A DNA stretch of 64,000 nt from an uncultured Clostridia bacterium (GCA_934183305.1 CAKPSF010000002.1:145395-209394), one strand, 5' to 3'; positions 9,205-39,632 are shown, counted from the stretch's first letter. Numbers and translations are program-made. Notes: a model not told the origin generated them from the sequence alone.

Positions 9205-9309
9205 ATTAGCGGAATGCGAAAATAAATAAGCATAACAATTTAACTTTTATTTGCCCCAATAACAACTTCCCGTTTATTGAGTCTTTACTATTTATTTTCT
9301 ACTCTAATT
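9205..9309 (-). promoter_or_regulatory. THF (folT-motif) riboswitch aptamer
   Basis: Minus strand reads AAUUAGAGUAGAAAAUAAAUAG...ACGGGAAGU...CUUAUUUAUUUUCGCAUUCCGCUAAU. P1 is AUUAG/CUAAU. P2 is a 12-bp stem, GAAAAUAAAUAG/CUUAUUUAUUUUC. The GAGUAG, GGGAxG and GCAUyCCGCU blocks match the THF-I consensus as I recall it. A downstream UUUCUUUU/AAAAGAAA hairpin abuts the SD. Confidence 0.7.
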
Positions 9310-11668: not shown

Positions 11669-11988
11669 CTTAACACTCTTATATCTTTATATTTATTAAG
11701 TACCTCCATATATTTAGAATACTCCTCTTCCCACAACATATCTGGTACCTTATCAAATGCACTAAAAACTTTTTCCGCCTCTGCTAAAAAAATCACCTGT
11801 TCTTGAGGACTAAGTTTTTCATATCTTTTTGAGAATTTGTACAATTTATCCAATGTTTCATTTGCTTTAATAAATGTCCAAAAGTCTTTTACTTTCATTC
11901 CTGCTGATTTTATTTGAAATACCGCAAATACAATTAGATAAAATATTACTAATATTAATATATATATTATAACAAGTGCTAATGACAT
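11653..11988 (-). CDS. small membrane protein, hypothetical
   Basis: 111-aa ORF with AAAGGAG RBS and an N-terminal TM helix. Confidence 0.65.
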   Translation of the reverse strand: MSLALVIIYILILVIFYLIVFAVFQIKSAGMKVKDFWTFIKANETLDKLYKFSKRYEKLSPQEQVIFLAEAEKVFSAFDKVPDMLWEEEYSKYMEVLNKYKDIRVLRWTSN

Positions 11989-12052
11989 TGTTTTGTTATT
12001 TCTCCTTTGTTTATATATTCTATTTTAAACATACTATTATTTTATATGTTAT

Positions 12053-14677: not shown

Positions 14678-14740
14678 ATACTCTCACCTCTAAAAAGAGT
14701 ATACCTATATTTTTTATTTCTAATACAATTTTTATTTAAA

Positions 14741-14780
14741 CCAAAACAAAAAATCCAGCTTGTTAAACAAACTGGATTTT
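14741..14780 (-). terminator. intrinsic terminator after the beta-helix surface gene
   Basis: AAAATCCAG / CTGGATTTT stem, then TTTGTTTTGG on the minus strand. Confidence 0.75.
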
Positions 14781-14797
14781 ATTTAAAATTTATTTTT

Positions 14798-15715
14798 TTA
14801 TCTTTTATATTCTTCATTTGTAAATTCTACTCTGTCTGCACTTGATACATTTGCTGTTGTTATATTTGTTCCTTTTCCTACAAATAATTTTTGATTTTCA
14901 TCTATCCTTGCTGTTTTTCCACTTTCCATTGTTGAATTACTTATATATAATTGATTATTTGTTTCTCCAGCTGAGCCTCTTAATACTAAACCTGCTGAAA
15001 GCAATGTGCATCTATCCATATACACTTTATTGTTTGAATCGTTTGCTTTACTTCCGCCTCCTATATATAAGCATCCCCAATTTCCATCGCCAACACTTTC
15101 TCCATGTTTTCCTTTATATGGTCCACTTTGTAATGTTGCATTTTCTACATATGCTTCTCCATTTTCTCCTTGTGCAAAATATATTCCTCCATGCACATAT
15201 CCATCAAATGTTCCTCCATATACATACAATTTTGCCCCAGCATTATTTTGTAATCCTGAATGTACTCCATAAACACTTCCAGAATAAAATCTCATTTCTC
15301 CACTATTACTAATTCCTATAGAATACACTTCAGCAACATGTCCACTTGAGGCATCAGCAAATACATTTGTATTTGTAATACTCATTGTGGCACCTGTTCC
15401 ATTCTCAATTCCATATGCATTGTTTTCATCAGAATTAACATTTATTTGGGTATTTGTAATAGTAGCTGTAGAGCCTTCACCTGCCTCATTATAAATTCCA
15501 TGTGCATCTTTTTTCTTAGAATCGACATTTATATTAGTATTTGTAATACTCATTGTAACATCAGTCCAATTATTAATGCCATATGCCTCGTTTTCATCGG
15601 AATTAGCATTTATATTAGTGTTTGTAACAGTAATTTTAGAGTTCGTATAATTTACTACTGTTTGTACTATTCCTTCTTTTGAATCTCCAGTTACTTCTGC
15701 TTTTTCTATATTCAT
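14798..15715 (-). CDS. C-terminal piece of frameshift-split pseudopilin-anchored beta-helix repeat protein
   Basis: Repeats ITNTNIN(A/V)xSDENxAYGI x4. Its frame is open upstream of the annotated Met and continues the upstream ORF after a +1 shift near 15747-15758. Confidence 0.7.
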   Translation of the reverse strand: MNIEKAEVTGDSKEGIVQTVVNYTNSKITVTNTNINANSDENEAYGINNWTDVTMSITNTNINVDSKKKDAHGIYNEAGEGSTATITNTQINVNSDENNAYGIENGTGATMSITNTNVFADASSGHVAEVYSIGISNSGEMRFYSGSVYGVHSGLQNNAGAKLYVYGGTFDGYVHGGIYFAQGENGEAYVENATLQSGPYKGKHGESVGDGNWGCLYIGGGSKANDSNNKVYMDRCTLLSAGLVLRGSAGETNNQLYISNSTMESGKTARIDENQKLFVGKGTNITTANVSSADRVEFTNEEYKR

Positions 15716-16649
15716 TATTCCATAATTTACTATTGAAAAGCATATTCCGTTTATTTGCAGTACATTTTACTGTAGAATTTTTAATTTGCATATTAGGTAA
15801 TGGTGTGGATTTTGATATTTTTACCCCTTGAACATTTCCATCTGCACTACTATTTGCTTCTATTACAGAACTTTCAATATTTGCATTACTTGCTTGCACT
15901 TGTAATCCATACGCATGTTTACTATTTTCAGCATATACTTCACATTTTCTCATGTAAAATTCATTACTTATTTTAACCTTTATTGATAATACTGTTCCTG
16001 AACTATTAATATTATTTACATATTCTCCACCTATCAAATTAAAGTTTTCTCCTTCTGCATCTATCAATATAAAGTTCGAAGTTATAGCATCATTAATTTT
16101 GGATTCTATTTTACTTCCTTGTAACATTCCATTTATTGTTGCTGTTGTTGATGCTCCAAAAACTATACCTGAAGTACTTGTTGTAAAGCTTAATGTATTT
16201 CCACCTAAATTTAATTCTACATTTTTATTTATTGTTAATTTATTTGCTTCTTCTGTGTTTTTTAGTAACACAACAACCACATTGTTATTTTCATCTTTAT
16301 ATATTCCTGCTACTGCATTTTCTTTTGTTGAATCTGCATTTGCTGTTGTTTCTCCGTTCACATCAGCTATTGCTTTACTTAAGGTTGTATAATATGAAAA
16401 TTCATATTTTTCTTGTAACTCTGCTACTGTTGGCATTATTTCTTGTGTATCTAGTACACCTTCATAATATTTTAATAAATCTTCTTCTCTTTTAGTCGCA
16501 TCTATATAATCTTTTTGGGCGTTTCTCGCATGCGCTATTATTCCATCTCCTGTTATTGCATTTATTGCTACTACTGCTAATATTAATAACACAACAATTG
16601 TTATTATTAATGCAATTAAGGTAATACCTTTATTCTTTTTTCGTTCCAT
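15636..16649 (-). CDS. N-terminal piece of the same split gene (pseudopilin-like N-terminus KNKGITLIALIITIVVLLILA)
   Basis: AAAGGAGGAG RBS and a strong promoter. The last ~40 residues (NKRNMLFNSKLWNNEYRKSRSNWRFKRR...) look out of frame. Confidence 0.7.
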   Translation of the reverse strand: MERKKNKGITLIALIITIVVLLILAVVAINAITGDGIIAHARNAQKDYIDATKREEDLLKYYEGVLDTQEIMPTVAELQEKYEFSYYTTLSKAIADVNGETTANADSTKENAVAGIYKDENNNVVVVLLKNTEEANKLTINKNVELNLGGNTLSFTTSTSGIVFGASTTATINGMLQGSKIESKINDAITSNFILIDAEGENFNLIGGEYVNNINSSGTVLSIKVKISNEFYMRKCEVYAENSKHAYGLQVQASNANIESSVIEANSSADGNVQGVKISKSTPLPNMQIKNSTVKCTANKRNMLFNSKLWNNEYRKSRSNWRFKRRNSTNSSKLYEL

Positions 16650-16678
16650 ATTTTTCTCCTCCTTTGATTTCTATTGAA

Positions 16679-16707
16679 ATTGTATAACAATTTGTTTTAT
16701 ATGTCAA
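16679..16707 (-). promoter_or_regulatory. promoter (TTGACA-17-TACAAT)
   Basis: rc of 16702-16707 is TTGACA and rc of 16679-16684 is TACAAT. Confidence 0.65.
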
Positions 16708-16857
16708 TTACTTTTTTCTAAAGCAACAAGTTTAAGTTACCTTGGTCAGTGTATATTTGTTAAGTCACTTTTCTTATATTATTCACAAAGTTTTTTATTT
16801 TAATCTTTTTTAACTTTGAATTGTTCGGAATAACTCCAAAACAAAGCCAAAATTTAA

Positions 16858-16878
16858 ACGCAAAAACGAGAGACAGTA

Positions 16879-16892
<14 letters not shown>
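16858..16892 (-). terminator. intrinsic terminator of the (CA)12 micro-gene
   Basis: CGAGAGA-tgggtaatactg-TCTCTCG followed by TTTTTGCGTTT (minus strand). Confidence 0.7.
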
Positions 16893-17001
<109 letters not shown>

Positions 17002-17037
17002 TTATTTTCTCCTTTGTTTTTATATTTTTACAATATT

Positions 17038-17066
17038 ATTTTATATTTAATTTAATGCATTGTCAA
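17038..17066 (-). promoter_or_regulatory. promoter of the micro-gene (TTGACA-17-TAAAAT)
   Basis: rc of 17061-17066 is TTGACA and rc of 17038-17043 is TAAAAT. Confidence 0.6.
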
Positions 17067-17146
17067 GAAATTTTAGTATCTTTTAGGATAAGACTTATTC
17101 ATATATAACCAACAAAACATATTGTTATTTTTCTTTTTTAATAGAA

Positions 17147-17177
17147 AAAATAGCTTAACATATAGTTAAGCTATTTT
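17147..17177 (-). terminator. original terminator of tRNA-Met, now separated from the gene by the prophage
   Basis: AAAATAGCTTAAC / GTTAAGCTATTTT 13-bp stem directly abutting the tRNA 3' fragment. Confidence 0.7.
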
Positions 17178-17222
17178 TGGTAGCGAAGGGGAGATTCGAA
17201 CTCTCGACCTGCCGGGTATGAA
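17178..17222 (-). repeat. att repeat copy 1: 45-bp 3' fragment of tRNA-Met
   Basis: tggtagcgaaggggagattcgaactctcgacctgccgggtatgaa is identical to 23661-23705. Confidence 0.95.
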
Positions 17223-17350
17223 TTTTGTAATTCGCAGTAGTGTATCTAAAAAGCAAATACCTAAATTGTGTTTTAAAAAATTCTTACCATATTTCTTTAC
17301 CATATTAAAAGGGTAGCCCGTAGGGTGCGGACAGCCATACGGCGCTTGAG

Positions 17351-17470
17351 TTATTTGTTAAGTTCATTGCTTACTTTATTTGTAAAATCGGTTTCTAAGT
17401 ATCTATATGTAAGTAAAATAGATAACATTAATGCTATTATAAGTACTGATATAAATAAAAGTTTTTTCAT
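17351..17470 (-). CDS. 39-aa membrane peptide downstream of the phage repressor
   Basis: GGAG RBS. MKKLLFISVLIIALMLSILLTYRYLETDFTNKVSNELNK. Followed by a GC-rich hairpin at 17305-17346. Confidence 0.4.
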   Translation of the reverse strand: MKKLLFISVLIIALMLSILLTYRYLETDFTNKVSNELNK

Positions 17471-17483
17471 CATTTTCTCCTTT

Positions 17484-17702
17484 CTATTTTGCTGGGTATT
17501 GCTTTTTTATATTAGTAATTTTTGCTATATAATCTATTGAAACTTTATAATATTCAGCATAAATTTTTATTACGTCTAAAGGCGGAACTCTTTCCCCATT
17601 TTCATATCTTATGTATGAGTTTTTTGATATATATGCTATTTTTGAACATTCTTCTTGTGTCATATCTTTATCTTCTCTTAAATCTCTTAATCTAGTTTCC
17701 AT
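17484..17702 (-). CDS. XRE-family HTH repressor (phage cI/Cro-like)
   Basis: 72 aa. LRDLREDKDMTQEECSKIAYISKNSYIRYENGERVP is an HTH_3 pattern. GAGGTG RBS. Divergent from the phage operon. Confidence 0.85.
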   Translation of the reverse strand: METRLRDLREDKDMTQEECSKIAYISKNSYIRYENGERVPPLDVIKIYAEYYKVSIDYIAKITNIKKQYPAK

Positions 17703-17732
17703 TTTTACACCTCAAAAAAATTATACAAAATT

Positions 17733-17774
17733 ACTCCATTTGGGGTTGACAAAATACCCCATTTGGAGTATTAT
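17733..17774 (+). promoter_or_regulatory. phage early promoter (TTGACA-17-TATTAT) bracketed by operator half-sites
   Basis: ACTCCATTTGGGG (17733-17745) and CCCCATTTGGAGT (17757-17769) flank the -35 at 17746-17751. The -10 is at 17769-17774. Confidence 0.65.
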
Positions 17775-17806
17775 TATTTTAGATTTTTTTATAGGAGTGT
17801 TTTATT

Positions 17807-18091
17807 ATGAAATTAAGTGAAGATTTTAAATTTTTAAATTTAAACGCAATCAGAAGAAAAGATGCTGAAAAATTAAAGCCAGAAGAACAATTTTTTTATA
17901 CTGTTAATTTATTAGACCATGATAATAATCCAGTAAGATTTTTCAGCTTTGATAATGCTGTAAATATCAGTTTAATTAAAGCTATAAACGAAGGAAAACT
18001 AAAAGGCTTACAAGATTGTCTAGTTCATTTTGAATTAGCTTTTTCTAATAACAATTGGGTAGTAAGGCTTTTAAATATAGAATTTGAATAA
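17807..18091 (+). CDS. phage hypothetical protein (position compatible with ssDNA-binding g5p-like role)
   Basis: 94-aa ORF with AGGAG RBS. First gene of the rightward phage operon. Confidence 0.6.
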   Translation: MKLSEDFKFLNLNAIRRKDAEKLKPEEQFFYTVNLLDHDNNPVRFFSFDNAVNISLIKAINEGKLKGLQDCLVHFELAFSNNNWVVRLLNIEFE

Positions 18092-18149
18092 AATTAATTG
18101 CTTTTAAGTTTGTGCTTCAAACAAGCTTTACTAAAGAAAGGAGTCAAAT

Positions 18150-18281
18150 ATGAACGAAATTGAATTATTAACCGCAATACACAGTCAATTAGGTTACATT
18201 TGTACCTTTCTTGTTTTCTTTATCATAGTTCTTTTATGCTACTTTGCATATAAGTTCTTTGATATGTTCTTTCACATTTAA
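18150..18281 (+). CDS. 43-aa phage membrane peptide
   Basis: AAAGGAG RBS. MNEIELLTAIHSQLGYICTFLVFFIIVLLCYFAYKFFDMFFHI. Confidence 0.5.
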   Translation: MNEIELLTAIHSQLGYICTFLVFFIIVLLCYFAYKFFDMFFHI

Positions 18282-18302
18282 CAAAAGAAAGGAGCTGAGC
18301 AT

Positions 18303-18476
18303 ATGGAAGAAACTGCAGCATCTACTATTTTATCTGAAATAGTAACATCTAAAATGCTTCAAGGTGTTTTAAATGAGATTACTGGTTTATTACCTATTGT
18401 TATACCTGTTATGATTTCATTCATAGCAATAAGAAAAGGTATAGCATTTGTGCAAAGTGTTTTGCATTCTGCTTAG
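18303..18476 (+). CDS. putative major coat protein (g8p-like), copy 1
   Basis: 57 aa with AAAGGAG RBS. ...KMLQGVLNEITGLLPIVIPVMISFIAIRKGIAFVQSVLHSA has one TM helix and a basic tail. Confidence 0.55.
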   Translation: MEETAASTILSEIVTSKMLQGVLNEITGLLPIVIPVMISFIAIRKGIAFVQSVLHSA

Positions 18477-18523
18477 TTTAAGAAACTAACAAAAGAAACT
18501 AACAAAAGAAAGGAGTGATTGGT

Positions 18524-18673
18524 ATGTTATCTTCAATAGTAACAGCTGATATGCTAAAAGGTGTTTTAAATGAAATTACTGGTTTATTACCTATCGTTAT
18601 ACCTGTTATGATTTCATTCATAGCAATAAGAAAAGGTATAGCATTTGTACAAAGTATTTTACACGCTGCTTAG
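18524..18673 (+). CDS. putative major coat protein (g8p-like), copy 2 (tandem paralog)
   Basis: 49 aa with AAAGGAG RBS. The core GVLNEITGLLPIVIPVMISFIAIRKGIAFVQS is identical to copy 1. Confidence 0.55.
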   Translation: MLSSIVTADMLKGVLNEITGLLPIVIPVMISFIAIRKGIAFVQSILHAA

Positions 18674-18750
18674 TATATTTTTATTCTAATCCCCCAGGGC
18701 TACATTATAAATATTTTGTAGTCCTTATTTTTTTAAGAAAGGAGAATTTC

Positions 18751-19350
18751 ATGAAGAATAAAATTTTAACTGTTTTTCTCATTGTTATATTAATTAGTTT
18801 TTGTTTCATTGGTAATAGTGCATTTGCTAGTTCAACTTTTACTTTTACTGATAGATTTGGAAACGAAAGAACTGTTCCTTCTTTTCCTGAGAGTGATATT
18901 ATTAGTAGTTCTAATTCTTTTGCTGTTGTAAATACTGGTAACTATAAAAACACTTTGTATGTTGCTACTGGTGATGGTTTTTTCTATGGTGGTGGAAGTG
19001 TTTTTTGTTCTACACCTTGCTATATGATTTATCTTGTTAATGGCGAATACGTTATTCAACCGAACACATGCACCGCTAATGCTCGTTTGTGTTCTGCTAG
19101 TGAATTATGCTATTTTTCTACTGGTTTATATGCTGACAAAGATAAATCTAGTGTAATTGTTGAACCTGGTGGAGATTTTTTTCATCTGGCTCCACTGACC
19201 CTGGAACCAATCCTGGAGAAGGTGGAGATGACTCAGGAGATAACAACAACGATAGCTGGTTTAGCAAAATTGTTAATTCCATTACTAGTTTGCCTAGTAG
19301 GATTTTGGAAGGCTTGGCAAGCTCTTTCGAAGTTATTACACAAGGCATAA
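18751..19350 (+). CDS. phage g3p-like adsorption/minor coat protein, N-terminal part (frame 0)
   Basis: Signal peptide MKNKILTVFLIVILISFCFIGNSAFA. The frame continues into 19290..19937 after a -1 shift at the T7 run 19176-19182. Confidence 0.6.
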   Translation: MKNKILTVFLIVILISFCFIGNSAFASSTFTFTDRFGNERTVPSFPESDIISSSNSFAVVNTGNYKNTLYVATGDGFFYGGGSVFCSTPCYMIYLVNGEYVIQPNTCTANARLCSASELCYFSTGLYADKDKSSVIVEPGGDFFHLAPLTLEPILEKVEMTQEITTTIAGLAKLLIPLLVCLVGFWKAWQALSKLLHKA

Positions 19351-19937
19351 AGGGATTAGCTGATTTACTTAAATATATTAATCCCTTTGATGAAAATTTT
19401 ATTTTAAAAGGTATTATTGAAACTATTGGAAATATTTTAAGTTATATTAATCCATTTAGCGAGAACTTTTTTGGTTGGAAATTAATTGAGCTTTTTGGAA
19501 ACTTACTACAAAAGCTTTTTATTCCTTCAGAAGAGTCTGTAAATAATCTTGTTGATAGCGTTAAATCTAAATTTGCCTTTATTGATTATATTAAAAGTTC
19601 TGTTAATGACATTAATAGTATTTTAAATGGTAGTGTTCCTGCTCCATCTTTAACAATTCATGTTTCAGATAGTTCTTTTACTACTGCTCAAGATATAAAA
19701 GTTTTAGATTTAACCTGGTATAAACAATTCAAAGAATTTGGAGATAAAATTATTACTGGTTTTATTTATGCTTTATTTATCTGGAGGATTTATATTGGAT
19801 TGCCAAATATTATTTCTGGTGCTGGTAGTACTATAAATGATGTTCCGGCCGAGGTTAGTGATATTCAAGCTTATGCTAAATTTGGATTTGGTCGTGCTAC
19901 TACTACAAAACGAGGAAAGGGGAATTTGAGAAATTGA
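19290..19937 (+). CDS. phage g3p-like protein, C-terminal part (-1 frame)
   Basis: The -1 frame is open from 19182 and reads SSGSTDPGTNPGEGGDDSGDNNNDSW (Gly/Ser/Asp linker), then a C-terminal domain with a TM helix. Confidence 0.6.
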   Translation: MPSRILEGLASSFEVITQGIKGLADLLKYINPFDENFILKGIIETIGNILSYINPFSENFFGWKLIELFGNLLQKLFIPSEESVNNLVDSVKSKFAFIDYIKSSVNDINSILNGSVPAPSLTIHVSDSSFTTAQDIKVLDLTWYKQFKEFGDKIITGFIYALFIWRIYIGLPNIISGAGSTINDVPAEVSDIQAYAKFGFGRATTTKRGKGNLRN

Positions 19938-20185
19938 TAGTTAATGGTATTTTATTAATTTTACAGGGTATTGTTAATATTTTATTAACTCCCCTTACGC
20001 CTTTGAATTGGCTTGCTGATACAGCAGTAAAAATATCTGTAATTTCGGATTTTATTAATATTGTTGCTTTTGTTTTACCTTGGAAGAATATTTTACCTAT
20101 ATTTATTTTTATATCAGCAGCATTCTTGTTTAGAGCCATTGTAGCTTTAATAAAAACTATTTGGGATTTATTACCTGTTTTATAA
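19934..20185 (+). CDS. phage minor coat/membrane protein (g6p-like)
   Basis: 83-aa hydrophobic ORF. Its TTG start overlaps the upstream TGA (TTGA). Confidence 0.55.
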   Translation: MIVNGILLILQGIVNILLTPLTPLNWLADTAVKISVISDFINIVAFVLPWKNILPIFIFISAAFLFRAIVALIKTIWDLLPVL

Positions 20186-20197
20186 TTGGAGTTTATT

Positions 20198-20353
20198 ATG
20201 TTTATTTTTATTATTATATTTTTTATTATTTTTGTTATTAGTTTTGTTTATTTTTTTTATAAAATTAAGATGTTAGAGGATGATGTTGAAAGCTTATATG
20301 ATAATTATATTCGTTACATAGAAAATAGCTTTAGGAGGAATAAAAATGCTTAG
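20198..20353 (+). CDS. 51-aa phage membrane peptide
   Basis: GGAG RBS. N-terminal MFIFIIIFFIIFVISFVYFFY. Overlaps the Zot-like gene start. Confidence 0.45.
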   Translation: MFIFIIIFFIIFVISFVYFFYKIKMLEDDVESLYDNYIRYIENSFRRNKNA

Positions 20354-21215
20354 TATATTTTTTACAGTATTAGAAGGTATTTTTCTTATGTTAAAATGGC
20401 CTTTATATATTTCACTTTCTTGTTTTGCTTTGTTTTTAGTTTTATGTGCCTTTTGGTTTTTATTTTATACATTTAAAGGAAAAAGATTAAAAAAAGGTTC
20501 TAGAAGATTCATTAAACAAGATGGATTTTTTAAGAAGATTTTTTATAAATTACCCAAACAAATAGTTGAAGATATATACGATAAAAATCCTGATTATTTT
20601 AACTATCAAGGTGTAATTATCTTTGAAGGTGTTCAAGGCTCTGGAAAAACTATGTCTATGATTGAATTTGCTATGCGTATTCAAGAAGAATATCCTAAAT
20701 GTCTTTGTACATCTAATTTAGCTTATAAACATGAAAATGTTCCTTTAGAAGATTGGAAAATGTTATTGAATTATAAAAATGATATATATGGTGTATTGGT
20801 TTTAATTGATGAACTACAAAATTGGTTTTCAAGTAATGACAGCAAAAATTTTCCGCCTGATATGCTTTCTATTATAACTCAAAACCGAAAAAATAGACGT
20901 ATTATATTAGGAACTTCACAGGTTTTTAGTATGTTAGCAAAACCTATTAGAACCCAAACCACCGAGCTACGTAGGTGTACTACGTTGCTCGGTGTACTGA
21001 CTATCGTTAGAAGATTTAGGCCAATTTTTGATAGTTCTGGAGAATTAAAAGAAATTAAAAGATTAGGTTCGTATTTTTTTATTCAAAATAAAAAATTAAG
21101 AGAAGCTTACGATACTTATAAAGTAATTGATAGACTTTCAGAGGTTGGCTTCCAGGAACTTAAAAACTTAATTGAGAATAATACTATTAATTTAATTAAT
21201 TATGGAAAGAAGTAG
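20346..21215 (+). CDS. Zot/g1p-like phage assembly ATPase
   Basis: Two N-terminal TM helices, Walker A GVQGSGKT and Walker B VLVLIDELQNWF. AGGAGG RBS. Confidence 0.75.
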   Translation: MLSIFFTVLEGIFLMLKWPLYISLSCFALFLVLCAFWFLFYTFKGKRLKKGSRRFIKQDGFFKKIFYKLPKQIVEDIYDKNPDYFNYQGVIIFEGVQGSGKTMSMIEFAMRIQEEYPKCLCTSNLAYKHENVPLEDWKMLLNYKNDIYGVLVLIDELQNWFSSNDSKNFPPDMLSIITQNRKNRRIILGTSQVFSMLAKPIRTQTTELRRCTTLLGVLTIVRRFRPIFDSSGELKEIKRLGSYFFIQNKKLREAYDTYKVIDRLSEVGFQELKNLIENNTINLINYGKK

Positions 21216-21223
21216 GTGTTTGT

Positions 21224-21412
21224 ATGTTAAATCCTTATTTTAGAATTTTATTGTTTTTTGGTTTTATGTCTTTTATTGATATTTTTGTTGATAGCCTTTG
21301 CCAACATTTATCTGCCAAACGTGCTCATTATAATTGTTCAAAATGTAGTAATTGGCGTTGTATGAGTTGTTATTGTAAAAATAAAGAAAGGAATTATAAA
21401 AATGAAAAATAA
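21224..21412 (+). CDS. phage small Cys-rich membrane protein
   Basis: 62 aa with a TM helix, then CSKCSNWRCMSCYC. AGGTG RBS. Confidence 0.5.
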   Translation: MLNPYFRILLFFGFMSFIDIFVDSLCQHLSAKRAHYNCSKCSNWRCMSCYCKNKERNYKNEK

Positions 21413-21596
21413 AGATTTTATAAATTTAGTTTTATATGGTTTAGGTATTTGTGTATTAACTTTTATATTTAATTATATTTTTAACATTTATGGAGTAAAA
21501 ACATTGCATAGATGTATTTGTATGTTAGCTATTGGTTTTTCAATTTATTTATATGTACCTTTTTATAAGTTATTTTTTAAAGAGTTACATAAATAA
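21402..21596 (+). CDS. phage small membrane protein
   Basis: 64 aa with two TM helices. Overlaps the upstream gene by 11 nt. Confidence 0.5.
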   Translation: MKNKDFINLVLYGLGICVLTFIFNYIFNIYGVKTLHRCICMLAIGFSIYLYVPFYKLFFKELHK

Positions 21597-21600
21597 AAAT

Positions 21601-21628
21601 TCGGAGGGTTCTTAGTAACACCCTCCGA
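21601..21628 (+). other. GC-rich hairpin upstream of rep (candidate replication origin / packaging signal)
   Basis: TCGGAGGGT-tcttagtaac-ACCCTCCGA, a 9-bp stem with no T-run after it. A second imperfect hairpin lies at 21630-21647. Confidence 0.4.
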
Positions 21629-21674
21629 GAGTTCCACCAGTGAAACTTTTTACAAAAATTTGGAGTAAAAATAT

Positions 21675-22703
21675 ATGATTGATACTATTAAAATTTATAC
21701 TATGATTAATAAAAATACATATGATAAAATTTACAACAATTCTATTATAAAGTCAAGTTATAATAAAAAAGATGGAGAAATTTATTACGAAATTGTAAAC
21801 GATAAATTAGAAGGTTCTTATAGCTCTAGTTTGTCGGTTCGTGTTGGTTCTGGTGTTAAATATAGATTTGTAAATATGTATTATTTAGAAATTGAAGGAA
21901 GTTATCACAAAATTATTAATGGCTATAATTCTCATAATGGCTATTATAATTTGCAAAGTATTGTTAAATGGCTTATAGGTGCTGTTGAGAATTCTTATAA
22001 TATTTCTTTGCCAAAATTTAATCATTGGTTCTTACAACGTCTTGATGTAGCTGTTTGTTTTGATTTAGAAAATAATGATACTGTTCGTAAGTATATTAAT
22101 AACTTGGCTTTATGTAGTTATGCTCGTCGTAATATTAAACATTATCAGGACGAAAGTATTTATTGTTCTGGTTCAACTACTACACTAAAGATATATAATA
22201 AGTTGTTAGAATTTAAAAAGCACGATATGAAAAAATTTTTCAATTCAAATTTTAATATTGATAGCTATATCAATAAAATAAAAGGCTTTATTAGATTTGA
22301 ATGTGAAATTAAAAAGAAAAAATTAGAAGATATTTATAATAAAAAATATATTAGAATTAAAAATGTAAGATATGAAGATTTTTATGAAATTTGGAAGTGT
22401 GAGTTTATGAAATTATTAAATTTTTTTGAAAGTGATTTAACGATTGTTAGAAATAAAGAAGATATTAAAAGAAGATTATATACTTGTTATGGAAATAGAA
22501 AAGCTAATATACTTTATACTTTTTATAGCTCTATTATTTTAGACGGTATTACAGAAGTTAAGAAAAATGTTCCTAAAGTAACATTTTATAGACATATTAA
22601 AGATTTGAAAGCTTGTAATATTGATTTATCACAAAAATATACTTTAACTGCTGTTAATGATACTATTGACTTTAATCCATTTGAGTGGAAAGAGGTTGTA
22701 TAA
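21675..22703 (+). CDS. rolling-circle replication initiator (Rep_trans / RstA-like)
   Basis: 342 aa. WFLQRLDVAVCFDLE, TLKIYNKLLEFKKHD and FIRFECEIKKKKL fit the Rep_trans motif pattern as I recall it. Confidence 0.7.
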   Translation: MIDTIKIYTMINKNTYDKIYNNSIIKSSYNKKDGEIYYEIVNDKLEGSYSSSLSVRVGSGVKYRFVNMYYLEIEGSYHKIINGYNSHNGYYNLQSIVKWLIGAVENSYNISLPKFNHWFLQRLDVAVCFDLENNDTVRKYINNLALCSYARRNIKHYQDESIYCSGSTTTLKIYNKLLEFKKHDMKKFFNSNFNIDSYINKIKGFIRFECEIKKKKLEDIYNKKYIRIKNVRYEDFYEIWKCEFMKLLNFFESDLTIVRNKEDIKRRLYTCYGNRKANILYTFYSSIILDGITEVKKNVPKVTFYRHIKDLKACNIDLSQKYTLTAVNDTIDFNPFEWKEVV

Positions 22704-23630
22704 ATGAAATGTTCTCAAGTTTTAGATAAATTCATTATGCAAAAAAGTGTTGAGGGAGATACTCTTGCTACAATTAGGCATTATTCTACCCATATTCAAT
22801 TTTTTATTAACTTTTATGGTGACAAAGATATAAATAATATTACTTATAAAACTTATCAGGAGTATATCTTCTATCTAAAAAATAAAGAAAAAGCTTCTTC
22901 TGGTTTTATTGGTAAAGGTTGCAAATTATCTAGTAGAACTATTAAAACATATGCTTCAGCATTAAAAACATTTTTAAGTTGGGCATATACTAATAAATAT
23001 TTGTATTTTAATATTGCAGCAAATATAAAAATGCCTAAATATAGCAAAAAAGTAATTACTATTTTATCTATTAATGATATTGATTGCTTAATTAATCATT
23101 TTGATACTACTACATATATTGGCATTAGGGATTTATTTATTGTTTCACTAATGTTAGACGCTGGTCTTAGATTAAGTGAGGTTGCTTATTTACACGTTTT
23201 TGATTTTGATATTGGTAAGAATGTTATAAAAGTATTTGGTAAGGGGCAAAAAGAAAGATATGTGCCTTTAACTCCATTTATTTTAGATTGTTATAAAAAG
23301 TACAAAAAAGCTTTTATTAATTATTTTAATAGATACCCTGAGTATGATGAAATAATATTTAAAAATATTGACGGTACTGATATAACTAGCAATGGTATTT
23401 CTTTAATGTTTAGACGTCTTAGACATAATATGAAAAACAAATTACATCCACACTTATTAAGACATACATTTGCGACATATTTTCTATTAAATGGCGGTGA
23501 TATTGAAACACTTAAAATTATTCTAGGTCATACAACTATATATATGAGCGAACAATATTTACATTTGGCCAATCAACTAAATTTACAAAATATGTCCCGT
23601 TTTTCTCCATTATCTAATATGAATAAATAA
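22704..23630 (+). CDS. tyrosine recombinase / phage integrase
   Basis: GLRLSEV (Arg), HPHLLRHTFATY (H-x-x-R) and LGHTTIYMSEQYLH (His...Tyr). Adjacent to the att/tRNA. Confidence 0.9.
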   Translation: MKCSQVLDKFIMQKSVEGDTLATIRHYSTHIQFFINFYGDKDINNITYKTYQEYIFYLKNKEKASSGFIGKGCKLSSRTIKTYASALKTFLSWAYTNKYLYFNIAANIKMPKYSKKVITILSINDIDCLINHFDTTTYIGIRDLFIVSLMLDAGLRLSEVAYLHVFDFDIGKNVIKVFGKGQKERYVPLTPFILDCYKKYKKAFINYFNRYPEYDEIIFKNIDGTDITSNGISLMFRRLRHNMKNKLHPHLLRHTFATYFLLNGGDIETLKIILGHTTIYMSEQYLHLANQLNLQNMSRFSPLSNMNK

Positions 23631-23631
23631 A

Positions 23632-23658
23632 AAAAGTCCTATTTTTAGGACTTTTCTT
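23632..23658 (+). terminator. terminator after integrase
   Basis: AAAAGTCCT-attttt-AGGACTTTT. Confidence 0.7.
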
Positions 23659-23660
23659 AT

Positions 23661-23737
23661 TGGTAGCGAAGGGGAGATTCGAACTCTCGACCTGCCGGGT
23701 ATGAACCGGATGCTCTAGCCAACTGAGCTACTTCGCC
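23661..23737 (-). tRNA. tRNA-Met (CAT); could be Ile2 if lysidinylated
   Basis: rc GGCGAAGTAGCTCAGTTGGCTAGAGCATCCGGTTCATACCCGG...CTTCGCTACCA. The 3' 45 nt (23661-23705) is att repeat copy 2. Confidence 0.9.
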
Positions 23738-27897: not shown

Positions 27898-28155
27898 TTA
27901 TTTAAGCTCTAAAATCTCAAGCTTATTTAAAACTACACCTTCCAGCTTCATACTTCCTTGTATAAAAATTAACATATTATTTTGCAATTTACTATAACAA
28001 TAATCTGCATTTTCATTGTATGCTTTTACTGTTACTATTCCTGCATTATTTAATAATTCCAAATCAAATATTGCAACAGAATAGTTTGAACCTTCTACAA
28101 TGAATTCAAATTTTATATTACTACAAACTTTTCCTAATAGAAAACATATATTCAT
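27898..28155 (-). CDS. 85-aa OB-fold/SSB-like mini protein
   Basis: AAGGAGAG RBS. FLLGKVCSNIKFEF...VAIFDLELLNN...VTVKAYNENADYCY...IFIQGSMK resembles a minimal SSB-type OB-fold pattern (by eye). Confidence 0.55.
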   Translation of the reverse strand: MNICFLLGKVCSNIKFEFIVEGSNYSVAIFDLELLNNAGIVTVKAYNENADYCYSKLQNNMLIFIQGSMKLEGVVLNKLEILELK

Positions 28156-28241
28156 AGTCTCTCTCCTTATATAATATACATAAGATACATATATTCAAAT
28201 ATTTACTAATATGTATCTTATTGATTCATTTTTACCTATAA

Positions 28242-28421
28242 TCAGGAAGGAATAAATCTCTTTAATACTAATACTTTACTGTATGCATTCCTTAAATTTA
28301 ATAACTGATTTAATAATAACGCATCTTTTCCTCTTGCAATGTAGAAACTTCCAGCATTAACTAATACTATGCTACCTTTACTTTTTATTTGTAACAATCC
28401 AAGCATTTTACTAAATCCCAT
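28242..28421 (-). CDS. 59-aa MutS-domain-I-like mini protein
   Basis: AAAGGAGG RBS 7 nt before the ATG at 28421. IVLVNAGSFYIARGKDALLLNQLLNL parallels the MutS N-terminal segment [29 protein letters not shown]. Confidence 0.5.
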   Translation of the reverse strand: MGFSKMLGLLQIKSKGSIVLVNAGSFYIARGKDALLLNQLLNLRNAYSKVLVLKRFIPS

Positions 28422-28471
28422 TTTAAGCCTCCTTTGGTATTTATAGAGGCGCATTTTTGTGCTGAAAGCAC

Positions 28472-28497
28472 AAAAAAATGCGCCCCGTTAGGGGCGC
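28472..28497 (-). terminator. GC-rich intrinsic terminator after pilin-FGE gene A
   Basis: Minus strand GCGCCCC-UAAC-GGGGCGC followed by AUUUUUUU. Confidence 0.8.
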
Positions 28498-28666
28498 CCC
28501 GTTAGGGTAATTTTTAATATCTTCGCAAAATCTATTATCATAGATTTTGTGTGATTTTAAAAATTACCTTTTTAACGTATTGCATTCGTTAAAATCTCTC
28601 GACTTTAACTTTTCTATTTAAAATTACTTCCAGCAAAATATAGTATTTCGCCCTCAGCGTTCAGTC

Positions 28667-29941
28667 CTACATATATAAAAGTGGACGGAAAGAAATGCCA
28701 ACGTTAGCACTGGTCGTGAAGATGCCGCCACGATAGCTCGTATAGTAGCGGCTGAAGTTGTAAAAACCACCACGTTGAGTGCAAGGAGAGTTGGAAAGGC
28801 TAGAGGTTTCTGTTGACCATTCAATACAATTGCTTGCCATATCATATACATTACATATTGTATCTTTTGTTCCACTATAACTTGTTCCTGATGTTCCTGT
28901 ATTTGCTAAACTACTATTTACACTTGTTTTACTTGCATATGTGCTATTATCTCCAAATTCTTGGAAAAAGATTATTGCTGTATCCCATGCATAACTATTT
29001 ACTAAATCACTTTCATATGGTTTATTTGTATACATATTTTGGCATCTCTCTGATGCTTGTAATTGTGTTACACAATTCCATACTTGTGAATTTGCTTTAC
29101 TTACTAACTTTAGTTTTTTTCCACTTTCTGCTACATATCCTGTCCAATCTATAGAACTACTACTATTTGATTTACTTATATTTGAAGCGTCATAATTTTC
29201 TACTCTTGCTTCATATCTTGCTATATAATAACCCCCACTTGTATTTGCTTTTGTACAAAATTCTGCTATATTTTTTGCTATTGCATTACTTTGGGTTGTA
29301 TTATATTCCGTATAGTTATAAGAATTCCTCATTATAGAAGTTGGGGTTGCATATGCACTCGCATTTTGTGCTACTGTATACGTTCCATCCTCATTTTTAG
29401 TAAAATTTTCATATCTTCCCAAATTTATTGTTTTTGCATTTGCTTCTGTTTTTGCTACATCTGTATATATTTTTTCTACTGGTATCCATACAAATTGATT
29501 GCCTGCTGTTTCTACTTGTGTATCTTCTACTACTATTCCTTTTGTTACATCTATATCATCTGCTGTATAACTAGTTGTACTATCTACTAATATTTTAAAT
29601 CCTGCTGGTAACATTATTTTATTTCCATACTCGTCTGTTAATGGTGTATTATCTGTTGTACTTAATACTTTATTTAAGCTATCTTTTAATGTTTTTGCTC
29701 CTGAACCTCCACCATTTATTTTTGAACTTTCTGTATCTAAATATTCTGAATATTCATCTAATCTTGCTTGTTCATTTGTTTGTGCTTCTGAATATTTTGT
29801 CTTTGCATTTTGTGCATGATTTAGTATTCCATTTCCACTTACTGCACTTATTGCTACTACTGCTAAGATTAATAACACAATTATTGTGATTATTAAGGCA
29901 ACTAGTGTAATACCTTTGTTCTTTTTTAGTTTTTGTTTCAT
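28667..29941 (-). CDS. pseudopilin-like N-terminus + FGE-sulfatase/C-type-lectin-like C-domain surface protein (paralog A)
   Basis: MKQKLKKNKGITLVALIITIIVLLILA. C-terminal GGYYIARYEAR, ICNVYDMASNCIEWSTE and RGG...ISFRPLLYM fit the FGE/SUMF1 pattern. 424 aa. Confidence 0.75.
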   Translation of the reverse strand: MKQKLKKNKGITLVALIITIIVLLILAVVAISAVSGNGILNHAQNAKTKYSEAQTNEQARLDEYSEYLDTESSKINGGGSGAKTLKDSLNKVLSTTDNTPLTDEYGNKIMLPAGFKILVDSTTSYTADDIDVTKGIVVEDTQVETAGNQFVWIPVEKIYTDVAKTEANAKTINLGRYENFTKNEDGTYTVAQNASAYATPTSIMRNSYNYTEYNTTQSNAIAKNIAEFCTKANTSGGYYIARYEARVENYDASNISKSNSSSSIDWTGYVAESGKKLKLVSKANSQVWNCVTQLQASERCQNMYTNKPYESDLVNSYAWDTAIIFFQEFGDNSTYASKTSVNSSLANTGTSGTSYSGTKDTICNVYDMASNCIEWSTETSSLSNSPCTQRGGFYNFSRYYTSYRGGIFTTSANVGISFRPLLYM

Positions 29942-38295: not shown

Positions 38296-38324
38296 ATTAT
38301 ACTACAAATTTTGGCAAAAGTCAA
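38296..38324 (-). promoter_or_regulatory. promoter (TTGACT-17-TATAAT)
   Basis: rc of 38319-38324 is TTGACT and rc of 38296-38301 is TATAAT. Confidence 0.7.
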
Positions 38325-38363
38325 AAGATTTGGAAAAGAATTTTTTATTTTTTATGAAATATT

Positions 38364-39632
38364 CTACATATATAAAACCGGGCGAAAACCAAGGTTGTCG
38401 TAAGCATCGTACGTTTTGTTACTGCGACGAATACTCGTGTAATAAGAGGCATTGTAGCAAAAGCCTCCACGTTTATTTGAAGGGCTTTCTGAAAAACTAG
38501 ATGTTTCTGTTGACCACTCATAGCAATTGCTTCCCATATCATAAACGTTACATATTACATCTACTTCTCCAGTATAAATTGTTCCAGATGTTCCTGTGAC
38601 AGCTAAATAATTATTCACACTTTTTTTGCTCGCATATGCTGCATTGTCTCCAAATTCTTGGAAGAATATTATTGCTGTATCCCACGCATAACCATTCACT
38701 AAATCACTTTCAAAAGGCTTATTGGTGTACATAGTTTGACATCTTTCTGAAGCTTGCGGTTGTGTTACATAATTATACACATAATTATCTGCTTTTAATG
38801 TCACTTGAGCTAATTCATCATTTTTAGATTTTCTTTCTGTTTCAGTTCCTACTCTTGCTTCATATCTTCCTATATAGTAACCTCCACTTGCATTAGTTTT
38901 GGTGCAAAATTCCCCTATGTTTTGGGCTATTACATTGCTTTGAGGTGTAGTATATTCTGTATAGTTGTAAGATCCATTATTTATAGGAATTATTTTTTCA
39001 TATTCATTTGCATTTTGGGCTACTGTATATTCTCCATTTGTTTTAGTAAAATTTTCATACCTTCCCAATGTTATTGTTTTGGCATTCTCTTCTGTTTTTT
39101 CTGTATCTGTATATATTTTTCCTACTGGTATCCACACAAATTGATTGCCTGCCGTTTCTAGTTGTGTATCTTCTACTACTATTCCTTTTGTTATATCTAT
39201 ATCATCCGCTGTATAATTTGTTGTGTTATCTACTATTATTTTAAAACCAGCAGGTACTTTTATCTTATTTCCAAAGTCATCTATCAACACTATATTTTCA
39301 CTTGTACTTAACACCTTATTCAAATTATCTTTTACTCTTGCCACATTATTTATTTTTGAGTTTTCTCTGTCTAGCTTTTCCAAATATTCGCCTAATTGTG
39401 TGTGTTCATTTATTTGTGAACCTGAATATTGGCTTCTTGCATTACTTGCATAGTTAAGCATTTTATTTCCTGTTACTGCGCCTATTACTACTACTACCAA
39501 TATTAATAATACAATAATTGTAATTATTAAGGCAACTAATGTCATGCCTTTATTGCGTGCAGGCAAAAAGCCTGTCTCTTCATATTTATTGTTTTTTGAA
39601 TATATAGACTTTCTTTTTAGTTTTTGATTCAT
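38364..39632 (-). CDS. pseudopilin-like N-terminus + FGE-sulfatase/C-type-lectin-like C-domain surface protein (paralog B)
   Basis: ...ARNKGMTLVALIITIIVLLILV. GGYYIGRYEAR, ICNVYDMGSNCYEWSTE, RGG...LGFRPVLYM. 422 aa, about 75% identical to paralog A outside the C-terminal 30 residues. Confidence 0.75.
   Translation of the reverse strand: MNQKLKRKSIYSKNNKYEETGFLPARNKGMTLVALIITIIVLLILVVVVIGAVTGNKMLNYASNARSQYSGSQINEHTQLGEYLEKLDRENSKINNVARVKDNLNKVLSTSENIVLIDDFGNKIKVPAGFKIIVDNTTNYTADDIDITKGIVVEDTQLETAGNQFVWIPVGKIYTDTEKTEENAKTITLGRYENFTKTNGEYTVAQNANEYEKIIPINNGSYNYTEYTTPQSNVIAQNIGEFCTKTNASGGYYIGRYEARVGTETERKSKNDELAQVTLKADNYVYNYVTQPQASERCQTMYTNKPFESDLVNGYAWDTAIIFFQEFGDNAAYASKKSVNNYLAVTGTSGTIYTGEVDVICNVYDMGSNCYEWSTETSSFSESPSNKRGGFCYNASYYTSIRRSNKTYDAYDNLGFRPVLYM

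What the first reader, a model, noticed from the sequence alone, without database searches (positions are those of the whole stretch)
38376..38486. Second paralog carries an equal-length but almost completely different C-terminal segment (candidate VR B)
Paralog B (38364..39632) aligns without gaps to paralog A.
In the 24 residues before the variable stretch, DTICNVYDMASNCIEWSTETSSLS vs DVICNVYDMGSNCYEWSTETSSFS differ at 4 positions.
In the 24 residues between RGGF and FRP, YNFSRYYTSYRGGIFTTSANVGIS vs CYNASYYTSIRRSNKTYDAYDNLG differ at 17. Identity resumes at FRP(L/V)LYM.
B is also enriched in NNC codons (TGC TAC GCC TAC CGC AAC TAC TAC GAC AAC CGC; 12 of 32 by hand). It too generates an alternative-frame ORF (38345..38542).
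Synonymous C/T differences at the conserved residues (TAC/TAT, AGC/AGT) argue that the two segments are not copied from one template. That implies either two TRs or one active and one fossil VR.
Basis: partly seen in the sequence, partly recalled or inferred. Interest (0 to 1): 0.7.

Follow-up and report, generated by a model that had tools for sequence, protein, structure and literature searches.

The report
Fossil DGR variable region in pilin-lectin paralogue
The divergent tail of the second paralogue is a real variable region of the kind written by a diversity-generating retroelement (DGR), but here it is a frozen relic: the window has no template repeat or reverse transcriptase, and the only retroelement remnant, next to the other paralogue, has lost them by deletion.

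Summary
Paralogues A (28667..29941 -) and B (38364..39632 -) align without gaps at the C-terminus. They differ at 4 of 24 residues before the segment and at 17 of 24 within it. B is enriched in NNC codons.

Across the family, the variable codons are NNC or NNT, and the third base is conserved column by column. Lys, Glu, Gln, Met and Trp are almost absent. Relatives carry intact cassettes in this order: pilin-lectin target, MutS-like gene, bAvd, RT, TR, RT-14 RNA, SSB-like gene. Their TR encodes the family scaffold with Asn at the variable sites. The segment is therefore DGR-made in origin.

The window has no TR and no RT. Downstream of A lies a decayed cassette. A deletion of about 1.77 kb removed most of the MutS-like gene, bAvd, RT and TR, leaving RT-14 RNA (28180..28321) and the SSB-like ORF.

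B lacks the conserved post-stop motif and hairpins that A has. It has seven NNA codons, three residues that A-mutagenesis of AAY codons cannot produce, and has lost a conserved Cys. It is identical in five assemblies. B is most likely an old fossil VR and A a more recently orphaned one. An intact DGR elsewhere in the genome cannot be excluded. This is a new member of a known kind, of modest interest.

The parts
38364..39632 (-). Paralogue B: 422-aa protein with a type IV pilin-like N-terminus and a divergent FGE-sulfatase/C-type-lectin-like C-terminal domain
   Evidence: ORF. N_methyl motif at 16.5 bits, below Pfam's cut-off. The family profile hits geopilin and PilE N-termini at E = 1e-4. 12 of 45 family members give weak FGE-sulfatase hits. 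The Foldseek top hit is TvpA (2y3c) at a non-significant E = 0.21.
38385..38504 (-).
   Evidence: 22 of 40 residues differ from A. Codon third bases: 12 NNC, 19 NNT, 7 NNA, 2 NNG. Three residues (E, K, K) cannot arise from AAY codons. The segment is identical in 5 assemblies.
38297..38363 (-). Sequence after B's stop codon: AT-rich, lacking the post-stop motif and GC hairpin found after A and after active VRs
   Evidence: The best match to TAGGACTGAATGCT has more than 4 mismatches.
28667..29941 (-). Paralogue A: 424 aa, same architecture, 63-67% identical to B
28688..28807 (-). VR-like segment of A (residues 379-418), 49% G+C in a 28% G+C window
   Evidence: 20 of 40 codons are NNC and 1 is NNA. 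It is one of the few G+C islands in the window. It is identical in strain L090.
28656..28669 (-). Conserved post-stop motif TAGGACTGAACGCT after A; candidate target-side cis element
   Evidence: The motif is present after 24 of 59 family VRs, and those VRs have the cleaner DGR codon signature. It also follows the active VR of L083.
28448..28594 (-). Conserved hairpins between A and the cassette remnant: TTAACG..CGTTAA (28570-28594), GCGCCCC-TAAC-GGGGCGC (28480-28497) and a terminator-like stem (28448-28484)
   Evidence: The same elements occur upstream of the MutS-like gene in L087, L095 and L002.
28242..28421 (-). Truncated MutS-like (MSL) accessory gene: only the first ~44 codons are homologous to the intact 138-141-aa MSL
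   Evidence: blastp gives 60-66% identity to the L083 and L087 MSL over residues 1-44/58. Weak Pfam MutS_I hit here; significant hit (E = 5e-9) for the L049 homologue.
28292..28296 (-). Deletion junction, equivalent to L087 positions 365 and 2130. About 1.77 kb is missing: the MSL 3' part, bAvd, RT, TR and the first ~27 nt of RT-14
   Evidence: blastn of the window against L087 and L083.
28180..28321 (-). RT-14 RNA (Rfam RF02921). In intact relatives it directly follows the TR
   Evidence: 83.1 bits against a gathering score of 48.1. L083 has the TR at 11810-11946 and RT-14 at 11942-12095. L087 has RT-14 at 2103-2245.
27898..28155 (-). 85-aa SSB/OB-like ORF, the last gene of the cassette in relatives
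   Evidence: 45-50% identical to the 82-aa ORFs after RT-14 in L083 and L087. Weak Pfam SSB hit.

Best explanation
B's divergent C-terminal segment is a relic variable region of a diversity-generating retroelement (DGR). It lies in the ligand-binding face of a C-type-lectin/FGE-sulfatase-like domain carried on a pilin-like, membrane-anchored surface protein.

Shown in relatives: an error-prone RT copies a TR that has AAC or AAT codons at the variable sites, and the resulting adenine-mutagenised cDNA replaces the VR. The cassette order is target, MutS-like gene, bAvd, RT, TR, RT-14 RNA, SSB-like gene.

Shown in this window: the machinery is gone. The one cassette, downstream of paralogue A, has lost RT, bAvd and TR through a ~1.77-kb deletion.

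Inferred: B is a dispersed paralogue whose VR was written earlier from a different TR version and has since been frozen. It is drifting by ordinary point mutation and has lost the downstream cis elements. A was diversified more recently and is now orphaned.
For: Family signature. In 25 distinct 61-residue VRs, the variable codons vary at positions 1-2 while position 3 is a column-specific C or T. The third base is C or T in 84% of variable VR columns, against 39% in variable columns elsewhere in the protein. K, E, Q, M and W make up 2.9% of the segment, against 19.7% of the rest.

Templates. In L083 the TR and VR differ at TR adenines, apart from one 3-nt indel and one C/T at the 3' edge. The L088 TR translates to ETYSNSNNPCVNRGGNYNNSNNYTSNRNNDNTSNANSNNSFRPL, which is the family scaffold with Asn at the variable sites.

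Intact cassettes. MutS_I, bAvd and RVT_1 genes follow a family target in L083-L088. This matches Architecture D of Wu et al. 2018 (PMC5758913).

Machinery lost in the window. There is no TR and no RT-like YxDD ORF. The RT-14 RNA, MSL fragment and SSB-like ORF lie downstream of A, with a clean deletion junction. The strain L090 shows the same decay.

B as a fossil. It has 7 NNA codons, three residues (E, K, K) that AAY codons cannot yield, and PS in place of the conserved PC. It lacks the post-stop motif and GC hairpin. VRs without the motif are more decayed across the family: NNR fraction 0.247 against 0.138 (p = 9e-5), NNC fraction 0.264 against 0.475. The whole B gene is identical between the window and L090, while 61 differences lie elsewhere in the 21 kb compared. 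The VR is identical in 5 cluster members.

No RT nearby. None lies within 10 kb of any of the six known paralogues of this species.
Against: Only ~64 kb of this genome, plus ~20-kb neighbourhoods of other paralogues, could be inspected. DGRs can act on remote targets (PMC5758913), so an intact DGR elsewhere is possible.

The compared strains are 99.7-99.9% identical. Their invariance limits recent activity but cannot exclude rare events.

B's cognate TR is unknown. Against the heterologous L088 TR, B's mismatches are only mildly enriched at TR adenines (25 of 52 against 26 of 83).

The lectin fold rests on weak hits. Foldseek gives E = 0.21 on a model with pLDDT 67. Pfam FGE-sulfatase matches are below threshold.

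The role of the post-stop motif as a cis element is an inference from co-occurrence.
Confidence: 0.7

Rival explanations
1. B, and perhaps A, is still a live remote target of an intact DGR located elsewhere in the genome, outside the window. The A/B difference would then reflect ongoing independent retrohoming from one or two TRs.
For: Remote targets more than 100 kb from the RT are documented for non-phage DGRs (PMC5758913). B still shows significant NNC enrichment. The family has many paralogues per genome. Intact cassettes of this clade are common in related gut Clostridia.
Against: B's VR is invariant in 5 assemblies and A's in 2. B carries NNA codons and E/K residues that an AAY template cannot produce. 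B lacks the downstream motif and hairpin. The synonymous C/T differences between A and B rule out a single shared TR. No RT lies near any of the six paralogues examined. None of the 120 listed RT homologues sits on a contig with the length of one known for this species; this is a weak test.
Confidence: 0.17
2. Ordinary paralogue divergence under diversifying selection, with no retroelement ever involved.
For: No TR or RT in the window. The segment is fixed among strains.
Against: Point mutation plus selection in a 28% G+C genome would not keep third codon positions as column-specific C or T while randomising positions 1-2. It would not exclude K, E, Q, M and W. Homologous TRs with Asn codons at exactly these sites exist in relatives. 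A decayed DGR cassette sits beside paralogue A.
Confidence: 0.03
3. The A/B difference is mainly due to recombination or gene conversion that moves ready-made VR cassettes or gene bodies among paralogues and strains. DGR mutagenesis would be only the distant source of the alleles.
For: Identical VRs occur in proteins that fall in different 90% clusters, for example P0005, P0006, P0015, P0052 and P0081. 49 of the 61 differences between two 99.7%-identical strains are packed into A's central domain. Paralogue positions differ between strains and sister species.
Against: This explains how alleles are shuffled, not how the NNY-patterned diversity arose. No donor copy of B's VR exists in the window. 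It is compatible with the best explanation rather than exclusive of it.
Confidence: 0.1

Closest known systems
DGR variable proteins with a C-type-lectin/FGE-sulfatase fold, such as Treponema denticola TvpA (PDB 2Y3C) and its remote paralogous targets
   Same: The VR lies at the extreme C-terminus, within a scaffold of the kind seen here (...EW..TE...RGG...FRP). Variable codons follow the AAY template pattern. There are several dispersed paralogous targets per genome. The best structural match of the model is TvpA, though it is not significant.
   Different: The N-terminus here is a type IV pilin-like methylation motif with a transmembrane helix, not a lipoprotein signal. Sequence similarity to FGE-sulfatase is below Pfam's threshold. 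In this genome no TR or RT was found, so B is not demonstrably a current target.
Architecture D DGR cassettes, which carry MutS-like (MSL) and avd accessory genes (Wu et al. 2018, PMC5758913)
   Same: Relatives (L083-L088) have target, MSL (MutS_I), bAvd, RT, then TR. The window keeps the MSL N-terminus in the same position downstream of A.
   Different: The window's copy is a deletion derivative without bAvd, RT or TR. Relatives also carry an RT-14 RNA right after the TR and a conserved small SSB-like gene. The parts of that paper I read do not list either as a DGR component.
RT-14 RNA motif (Rfam RF02921; Weinberg et al. 2017, PMC5737381)
   Same: Full-length match at 83 bits in the window, and at 99-112 bits in L083 and L087. 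The motif was defined by its proximity to RT genes.
   Different: Its function was left open (retron or DGR). Here it abuts the 3' end of a verified TR, which places it in the DGR RNA. This is comparable in idea to RT-10, the spacer region of the BPP-1 DGR, but the gene order is RT-TR-RNA. In the window it survives without any RT, and its first ~27 nt have been replaced.

Membership tests
DGR variable region (current target) | A cognate template repeat in the same genome that differs from the VR essentially only at TR adenines | tested here: not met
   An A-aware ungapped scan and blastn of both strands of the 64-kb window found only A and B themselves; the next best place had 28 or more non-A mismatches. 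The rest of the genome could not be searched.
DGR variable region (current target) | A DGR-clade reverse transcriptase in the cassette or genome | tested here: not met
   No YxDD-containing RT-like ORF in the window. No RVT_1 gene within 10 kb of six paralogues of this species. Genome-wide absence is not testable with these tools.
DGR variable region (current target) | Hypervariability among near-identical strains or within populations | tested here: not met
   B's VR is identical in 5 cluster members and A's in 2. There are no differences in B across window, L090 and L001 DNA. Read-level variation was not testable.
DGR variable region (origin / family level) | Substitutions confined to sites that are adenines in a homologous TR (AAY codons: positions 1-2 vary, position 3 is fixed) | tested here: met
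   Column-specific conserved third-base C or T with randomised positions 1-2. Third base is C or T in 84% of variable VR columns against 39% outside. KEQMW 2.9% against 19.7%. The TRs of L083 and L088 have Asn codons at these sites. For B itself the pattern is only partial: 7 NNA codons and E, K, K.
DGR variable region (origin / family level) | VR located at the C-terminus of a C-type-lectin/FGE-sulfatase-fold domain | tested here: inconclusive
   12 of 45 members give sub-threshold Pfam FGE-sulfatase hits, best E = 0.0018. The profile hits PvdO at E = 0.13. The AlphaFold model has pLDDT 67 and pTM 0.73. The Foldseek top hits are TvpA, pFGE and EgtB, but with E of 0.2 or more.
DGR variable region (current target) | Target-side cis elements at or after the VR 3' end (IMH region, downstream hairpin) | tested here: not met
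   For B there is no TAGGACTGAAYGCT-like motif and no GC hairpin within 180 nt. For A both are present. That these elements function as recognition signals is inferred by analogy with Guo et al. 2011 (PMC3240598; seen in the search list but not read here, so the analogy rests on my own knowledge).
Architecture D DGR cassette (locus downstream of A) | MSL + avd + RT + TR present and intact | tested here: not met
   Only the first ~44 codons of MSL, the RT-14 RNA and the SSB-like ORF remain. The deletion maps to L087 365-2130.
RT-14 RNA (RF02921) | Covariance-model score above Rfam's gathering threshold | tested here: met
   83.1 bits against 48.1, model positions 1-144. However, the 5' ~27 nt are non-homologous MSL-derived sequence.
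Type IV pilin-like proteins | N-terminal prepilin cleavage/methylation motif followed by a hydrophobic helix | tested here: inconclusive
   N_methyl scores 16.5 bits for B, below the 21.2 cut-off. 32 of 45 family members hit it. The family profile matches geopilin and PilE N-termini at E = 1e-4 to 4e-3. Processing by a prepilin peptidase is not testable here.

The most novel reading that the evidence does not exclude
A very large family of pilin-anchored lectin-like surface proteins in uncultured gut Clostridia (more than 7,800 database homologues, several paralogues per genome) may be diversified in bursts by one highly conserved DGR type: MSL, bAvd, RT, TR, RT-14 RNA, SSB-like gene. The RT module is then repeatedly deleted, leaving each lineage with a frozen repertoire of binding sites. 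In this reading, B and A are two successive layers of that 'write, then lock' process. The post-stop motif with its hairpins would be the handle that marks a paralogue as writable. RT-14 would be the structured part of the DGR template RNA.
Probability: 0.3. Interest if true: 0.55.

Novelty: new member of a known kind. Interest (0 to 1): 0.35.

Why it matters
The result shows how to recognise a DGR-written binding site after the retroelement has gone. The marks are NNY codons with a conserved third base and the absence of Lys, Glu, Gln, Met and Trp. It also gives a graded picture of decay within one genome: A looks fresh but is orphaned, B is drifting. In addition, it places the orphan Rfam motif RT-14 directly after a verified TR. 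It points to a conserved post-stop motif, and to a small SSB-like gene, as candidate parts of this DGR type. For gut-microbiome work, it flags a very large, unannotated family of pilin-like adhesin candidates whose specificity was set by DGRs. The central fact, that a C-terminal lectin-type VR is of DGR origin, is established biology.

Tried and rejected
- TR search in the window, by blastn and by an A-tolerant sliding comparison for both VRs: nothing found.
- RT motif scan of the window and of 79 related loci (1.2 Mb): no RT next to the family genes retrieved from representative genomes. The RT was found only by following the MutS-like ORF.
- Exact-pattern scan of viral contigs with the RT-14 core: two chance hits, one in a group I intron and one in a phage tail gene.
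- Full-length structure prediction of B failed (pLDDT 44). The C-terminal domain with 91 sequences gave pLDDT 67, but the Foldseek matches were not significant.
- phmmer of B against PDB sequences: only noise.
- Positional orthologues of B (between tyrS and carD) in other species: none among the 79 loci, so no cross-species entropy or dN/dS profile specific to B could be made.
- Literature search for pilin-type DGR targets in Clostridia: nothing specific found in the held library.
- Supplementary files of the RT-14 paper are not held.
- The alternative-frame ORFs over both VRs were considered and rejected as genes. I read them as by-products of the NNY codon runs.

Full report
**Observation.**
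The window has 28% G+C and comes from an uncultured gut Clostridia bacterium; related loci are titled as MAGs of 'uncultured Clostridia/Clostridium sp.'. Paralogue B is 38364..39632 (-), 422 aa. Paralogue A is 28667..29941 (-), 424 aa. They are 63-67% identical, and the last ~150 residues align without gaps.

Four of 24 residues differ before the segment and 17 of 24 between RGGF and FRP (Fisher p = 3.6e-4). Identity resumes at FRP(L/V)LYM. NNC codons make up 12 of 40 in B's segment, against 35 of 376 in the rest of the gene (p = 5.6e-4). In A they make up 20 of 40, against 16 of 378 (p = 7e-14). The alternative-frame ORF exists in both paralogues. I read it as a mechanical by-product of stop-poor NNY codons.

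**What the proteins are.**
Both have a prepilin-type N-terminal methylation motif followed by a hydrophobic helix. The single-sequence Pfam hits are sub-threshold. Thirty-two of 45 family members hit N_methyl, and the family profile matches geopilin and PilE N-termini at E = 1e-4.

The C-terminal domain has FGE-sulfatase/C-type-lectin-like motifs. Statistical support is weak:
- 12 of 45 members give sub-threshold FGE-sulfatase hits.
- A domain model with pLDDT 67 has TvpA (2y3c), pFGE and EgtB as its top Foldseek hits, at E of 0.2 or more.

The family is very large. More than 7,800 homologues were scored, and one contig often carries several paralogues.

**Family-level signature.**
The C-terminal ends of 125 homologues share an invariant scaffold, CNVYDMASNCxEWSTETxSxSxxPCTxRGGxYxxSxxYTSxRxxxxTxxAxxxxSFRPLLYM, with hypervariable x positions.

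At the DNA level, I compared 25 distinct VRs of the 61-residue class from species whose proteins are only 35-60% identical:
- The variable codons vary at positions 1 and 2, while position 3 is almost always C or T.
- The choice of C or T is conserved column by column. For example, C occurs in 20-21 of 25 sequences in some columns and T in 23 of 25 in others.
- In a codon alignment of 38 genes, the third base is C or T in 84% of variable VR columns, against 39% in variable columns elsewhere. There, A dominates, as expected for an AT-rich genome.
- K, E, Q, M and W, which NNY codons cannot encode, make up 2.9% of the segment and 19.7% of the rest of the protein.

This is the footprint of adenine mutagenesis of AAC/AAT template codons. 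Ordinary diversifying selection does not produce it.

**Finding the retroelement.**
The window has no TR and no RT-like ORF. Seventy-nine related loci with 10-kb flanks also showed no RT.

An Rfam scan found RT-14 RNA (RF02921) at 28180..28321 (-), scoring 83 bits against a gathering score of 48. This is about 350 nt downstream of A's stop codon. Weinberg et al. defined the RT-n motifs by proximity to RT genes and left their role open (PMC5737381).

Between A and RT-14 lies a small ORF whose first ~44 codons match a MutS_I-domain protein. The L049 homologue scores Pfam E = 5e-9. After RT-14 comes an 85-aa SSB/OB-like ORF, and then dnaE.

Homologues of the MutS-like protein led to intact cassettes in relatives (L083-L088). 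The order is pilin-lectin target, MutS_I gene (138-141 aa), bAvd, RVT_1 (336 aa), TR, RT-14 RNA, and an 82-aa SSB-like gene.
- In L083, the TR (11810-11946) and the VR (9609-9748) differ at TR adenines, apart from one 3-nt indel and one C/T at the 3' edge.
- The L088 TR translates in the VR frame to ETYSNSNNPCVNRGGNYNNSNNYTSNRNNDNTSNANSNNSFRPL. This is the family scaffold with Asn at the variable sites.
- A VR from the same chromosomal locus in another sample (L095) differs from that TR at 15 of 52 adenines and at 6 of 83 other bases.

This layout corresponds to Architecture D, MSL plus avd, of Wu et al. 2018 (PMC5758913).

**State of the window.**
Alignment to L087 and L083 shows a clean junction at about 28292-28296. 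Window 28629-28292 matches L087 30-365, which is the intergenic region plus the MSL 5' end. Window 28296-27985 matches L087 2130-2443, which is RT-14 from about its 28th nucleotide plus the SSB-like gene. About 1.77 kb is therefore missing: the rest of MSL, bAvd, RT, TR and the first ~27 nt of RT-14.

The same decayed arrangement is present in a strain that is 99.7% identical (L090, 507-kb contig). The other known paralogues of this species (P0002, P0006, P0070, P0024) have no DGR gene within 10 kb.

P0006 sits at the ylxM/ffh locus. There, one relative carries the full cassette (L087), another carries only MSL (L094), and this species carries nothing. Loss of the RT module is therefore recurrent in this clade.

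**A versus B.**

| Feature | A | B |
|---|---|---|
| NNC codons in the 40-codon VR | 20 | 12 |
| NNA codons | 1 | 7 |
| Residues not encodable by NNY | 1 (Q) | 3 (E, K, K) |
| Adenine fraction of the VR | 19% | 29% |
| Conserved PC in the scaffold | PC | PS |
| Post-stop motif TAGGACTGAAYGCT | present | absent |
| Conserved downstream hairpins | two | none; an AT-rich promoter-like spacer instead |
| Mismatches to the L088 TR at adenines | 29 of 52 | 25 of 52 |
| Mismatches to the L088 TR at other bases | 18 of 83 | 26 of 83 |

The same post-stop motif and hairpins follow the active VR of L083 and the VRs upstream of MSL in L087 and L095.

Across 59 distinct VRs, the 24 with the post-stop motif differ from the 35 without it:
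- NNR codon fraction: 0.138 with the motif, 0.247 without (p = 9e-5).
- NNC codon fraction: 0.475 with, 0.264 without (p = 1e-4).
- K/E/Q/M/W residues per VR: 0.88 with, 2.46 without (p = 1.6e-4).

B falls in the decayed class and A in the fresh class.

Neither VR varies among the available strains. B's VR is identical in five cluster members that differ elsewhere. The whole B gene is identical between the window and L090. A's VR is identical in a strain whose A protein differs at about 25 other positions.

**Interpretation.**
B's segment is a DGR variable region by origin (high confidence). In this genome it is most probably a fossil. It was written from a TR version different from A's, since the synonymous C/T differences exclude a recent common template. 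It was later cut off from mutagenesis and is now drifting toward AT. A was diversified more recently and was orphaned by the cassette deletion.

Three steps remain inferred:
- That no intact DGR exists elsewhere in the genome.
- That the post-stop motif and hairpins are target-recognition elements. This rests on co-occurrence here and on analogy with the BPP-1 IMH and hairpin (Guo et al. 2011, PMC3240598; seen in the list but not read here, so from my own knowledge).
- That the domain has a lectin fold.

**Rivals.**
- An unseen DGR still acting on B is possible (about 0.17). Invariance, non-template codons and the missing cis elements argue against it.
- Retroelement-free drift is rejected as the origin (about 0.03).
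- Recombination among paralogues clearly occurs. Identical VRs sit on diverged gene bodies. A 500-bp mosaic patch in A holds 49 of the 61 strain differences. Paralogues are gained and lost between strains and sister species. This process shuffles alleles but does not create the NNY pattern.

**Novelty and score.**
DGRs, lectin-type VRs, remote and degenerate targets, and MSL-type cassettes are all known. This is a new member of a known kind. Several side results are worth recording:
- RT-14 RNA sits directly 3' of a verified TR.
- A small SSB-like gene is a conserved end of the cassette.
- A post-stop motif correlates with the freshness of the VR.
- The family of pilin-anchored targets is very large and largely unannotated.
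- The RT module has been deleted repeatedly.

Interest: 0.35.

Noticed in passing
window 9205-9308 (-): THF (tetrahydrofolate) riboswitch aptamer, Rfam RF01831, 58 bits.
   Followed up: no
window ~18751-23630, beside tRNA-Met 23661-23737: Integrated filamentous-phage-like element. The syntenic genes in L090 carry Zot, Phage_CRI (replication initiator) and Phage_integrase domains. The block from window 14739 to 23657 is not found at the corresponding place in the related species L002.
   Followed up: partly
window 29000-29499 (central domain of paralogue A): 49 of the 61 differences between the window and the 99.7%-identical strain L090 over 21 kb fall in this 500-bp stretch. This suggests a recombination or mosaic patch in A's middle domain, while its VR is untouched.
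   Followed up: partly
L001 1-925, against the window at ~41255: Strain L001 carries an additional, heavily decayed family paralogue (6 K/E/Q/M/W residues in its VR) upstream of tyrS. The window lacks it. Homology to the window resumes at L001 942, equivalent to window 41255.
   Followed up: partly
L002 9889-11171, against the window at 12067/12096: In a sister species (dnaE protein 98% identical), a family gene with the post-stop motif and GC hairpin is inserted just downstream of the 810-aa ORF. The window has no such gene there. Paralogue locations are therefore fluid.
   Followed up: partly
window 15636-16649 (-): A third pilin-like ORF (337 aa; N_methyl at 21.7 bits, above the cut-off) whose N-terminus resembles those of A and B but which lacks the lectin-like domain.
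   Followed up: no
L025, L026, L029, L050, L055, L059, about 60-100 nt after the family genes' stop codons: Recurrent conserved sequence ATATAACTGTGTAAAT(TC) downstream of several family genes in different species. Its function is unknown.
   Followed up: no
L087, L094 and L100 (ylxM/ffh locus): Presence/absence series of the DGR at one chromosomal locus: full cassette (L087), MutS-like gene only (L094), and target gene only in the window's species (L100).
   Followed up: yes
RT homologues P0161-P0280: The RT of this DGR clade is unusually conserved: the 120 listed 90%-identity clusters are 80-90% identical to the query. The MutS-like proteins listed are 58-81% identical to their query, and the targets 35-70%. 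This could reflect strong constraint or horizontal spread.
   Followed up: no
window 28480-28506 (-): Tandem duplication of CCCTAACGGGGCG. It forms the GC-rich hairpin GCGCCCC-TAAC-GGGGCGC followed by a terminator-like stem. The same element, as CCACTAACGTGGCG x2, lies upstream of the MutS-like gene in L087, and a single copy directly follows the stop of the L002 and L100 paralogues.
   Followed up: partly
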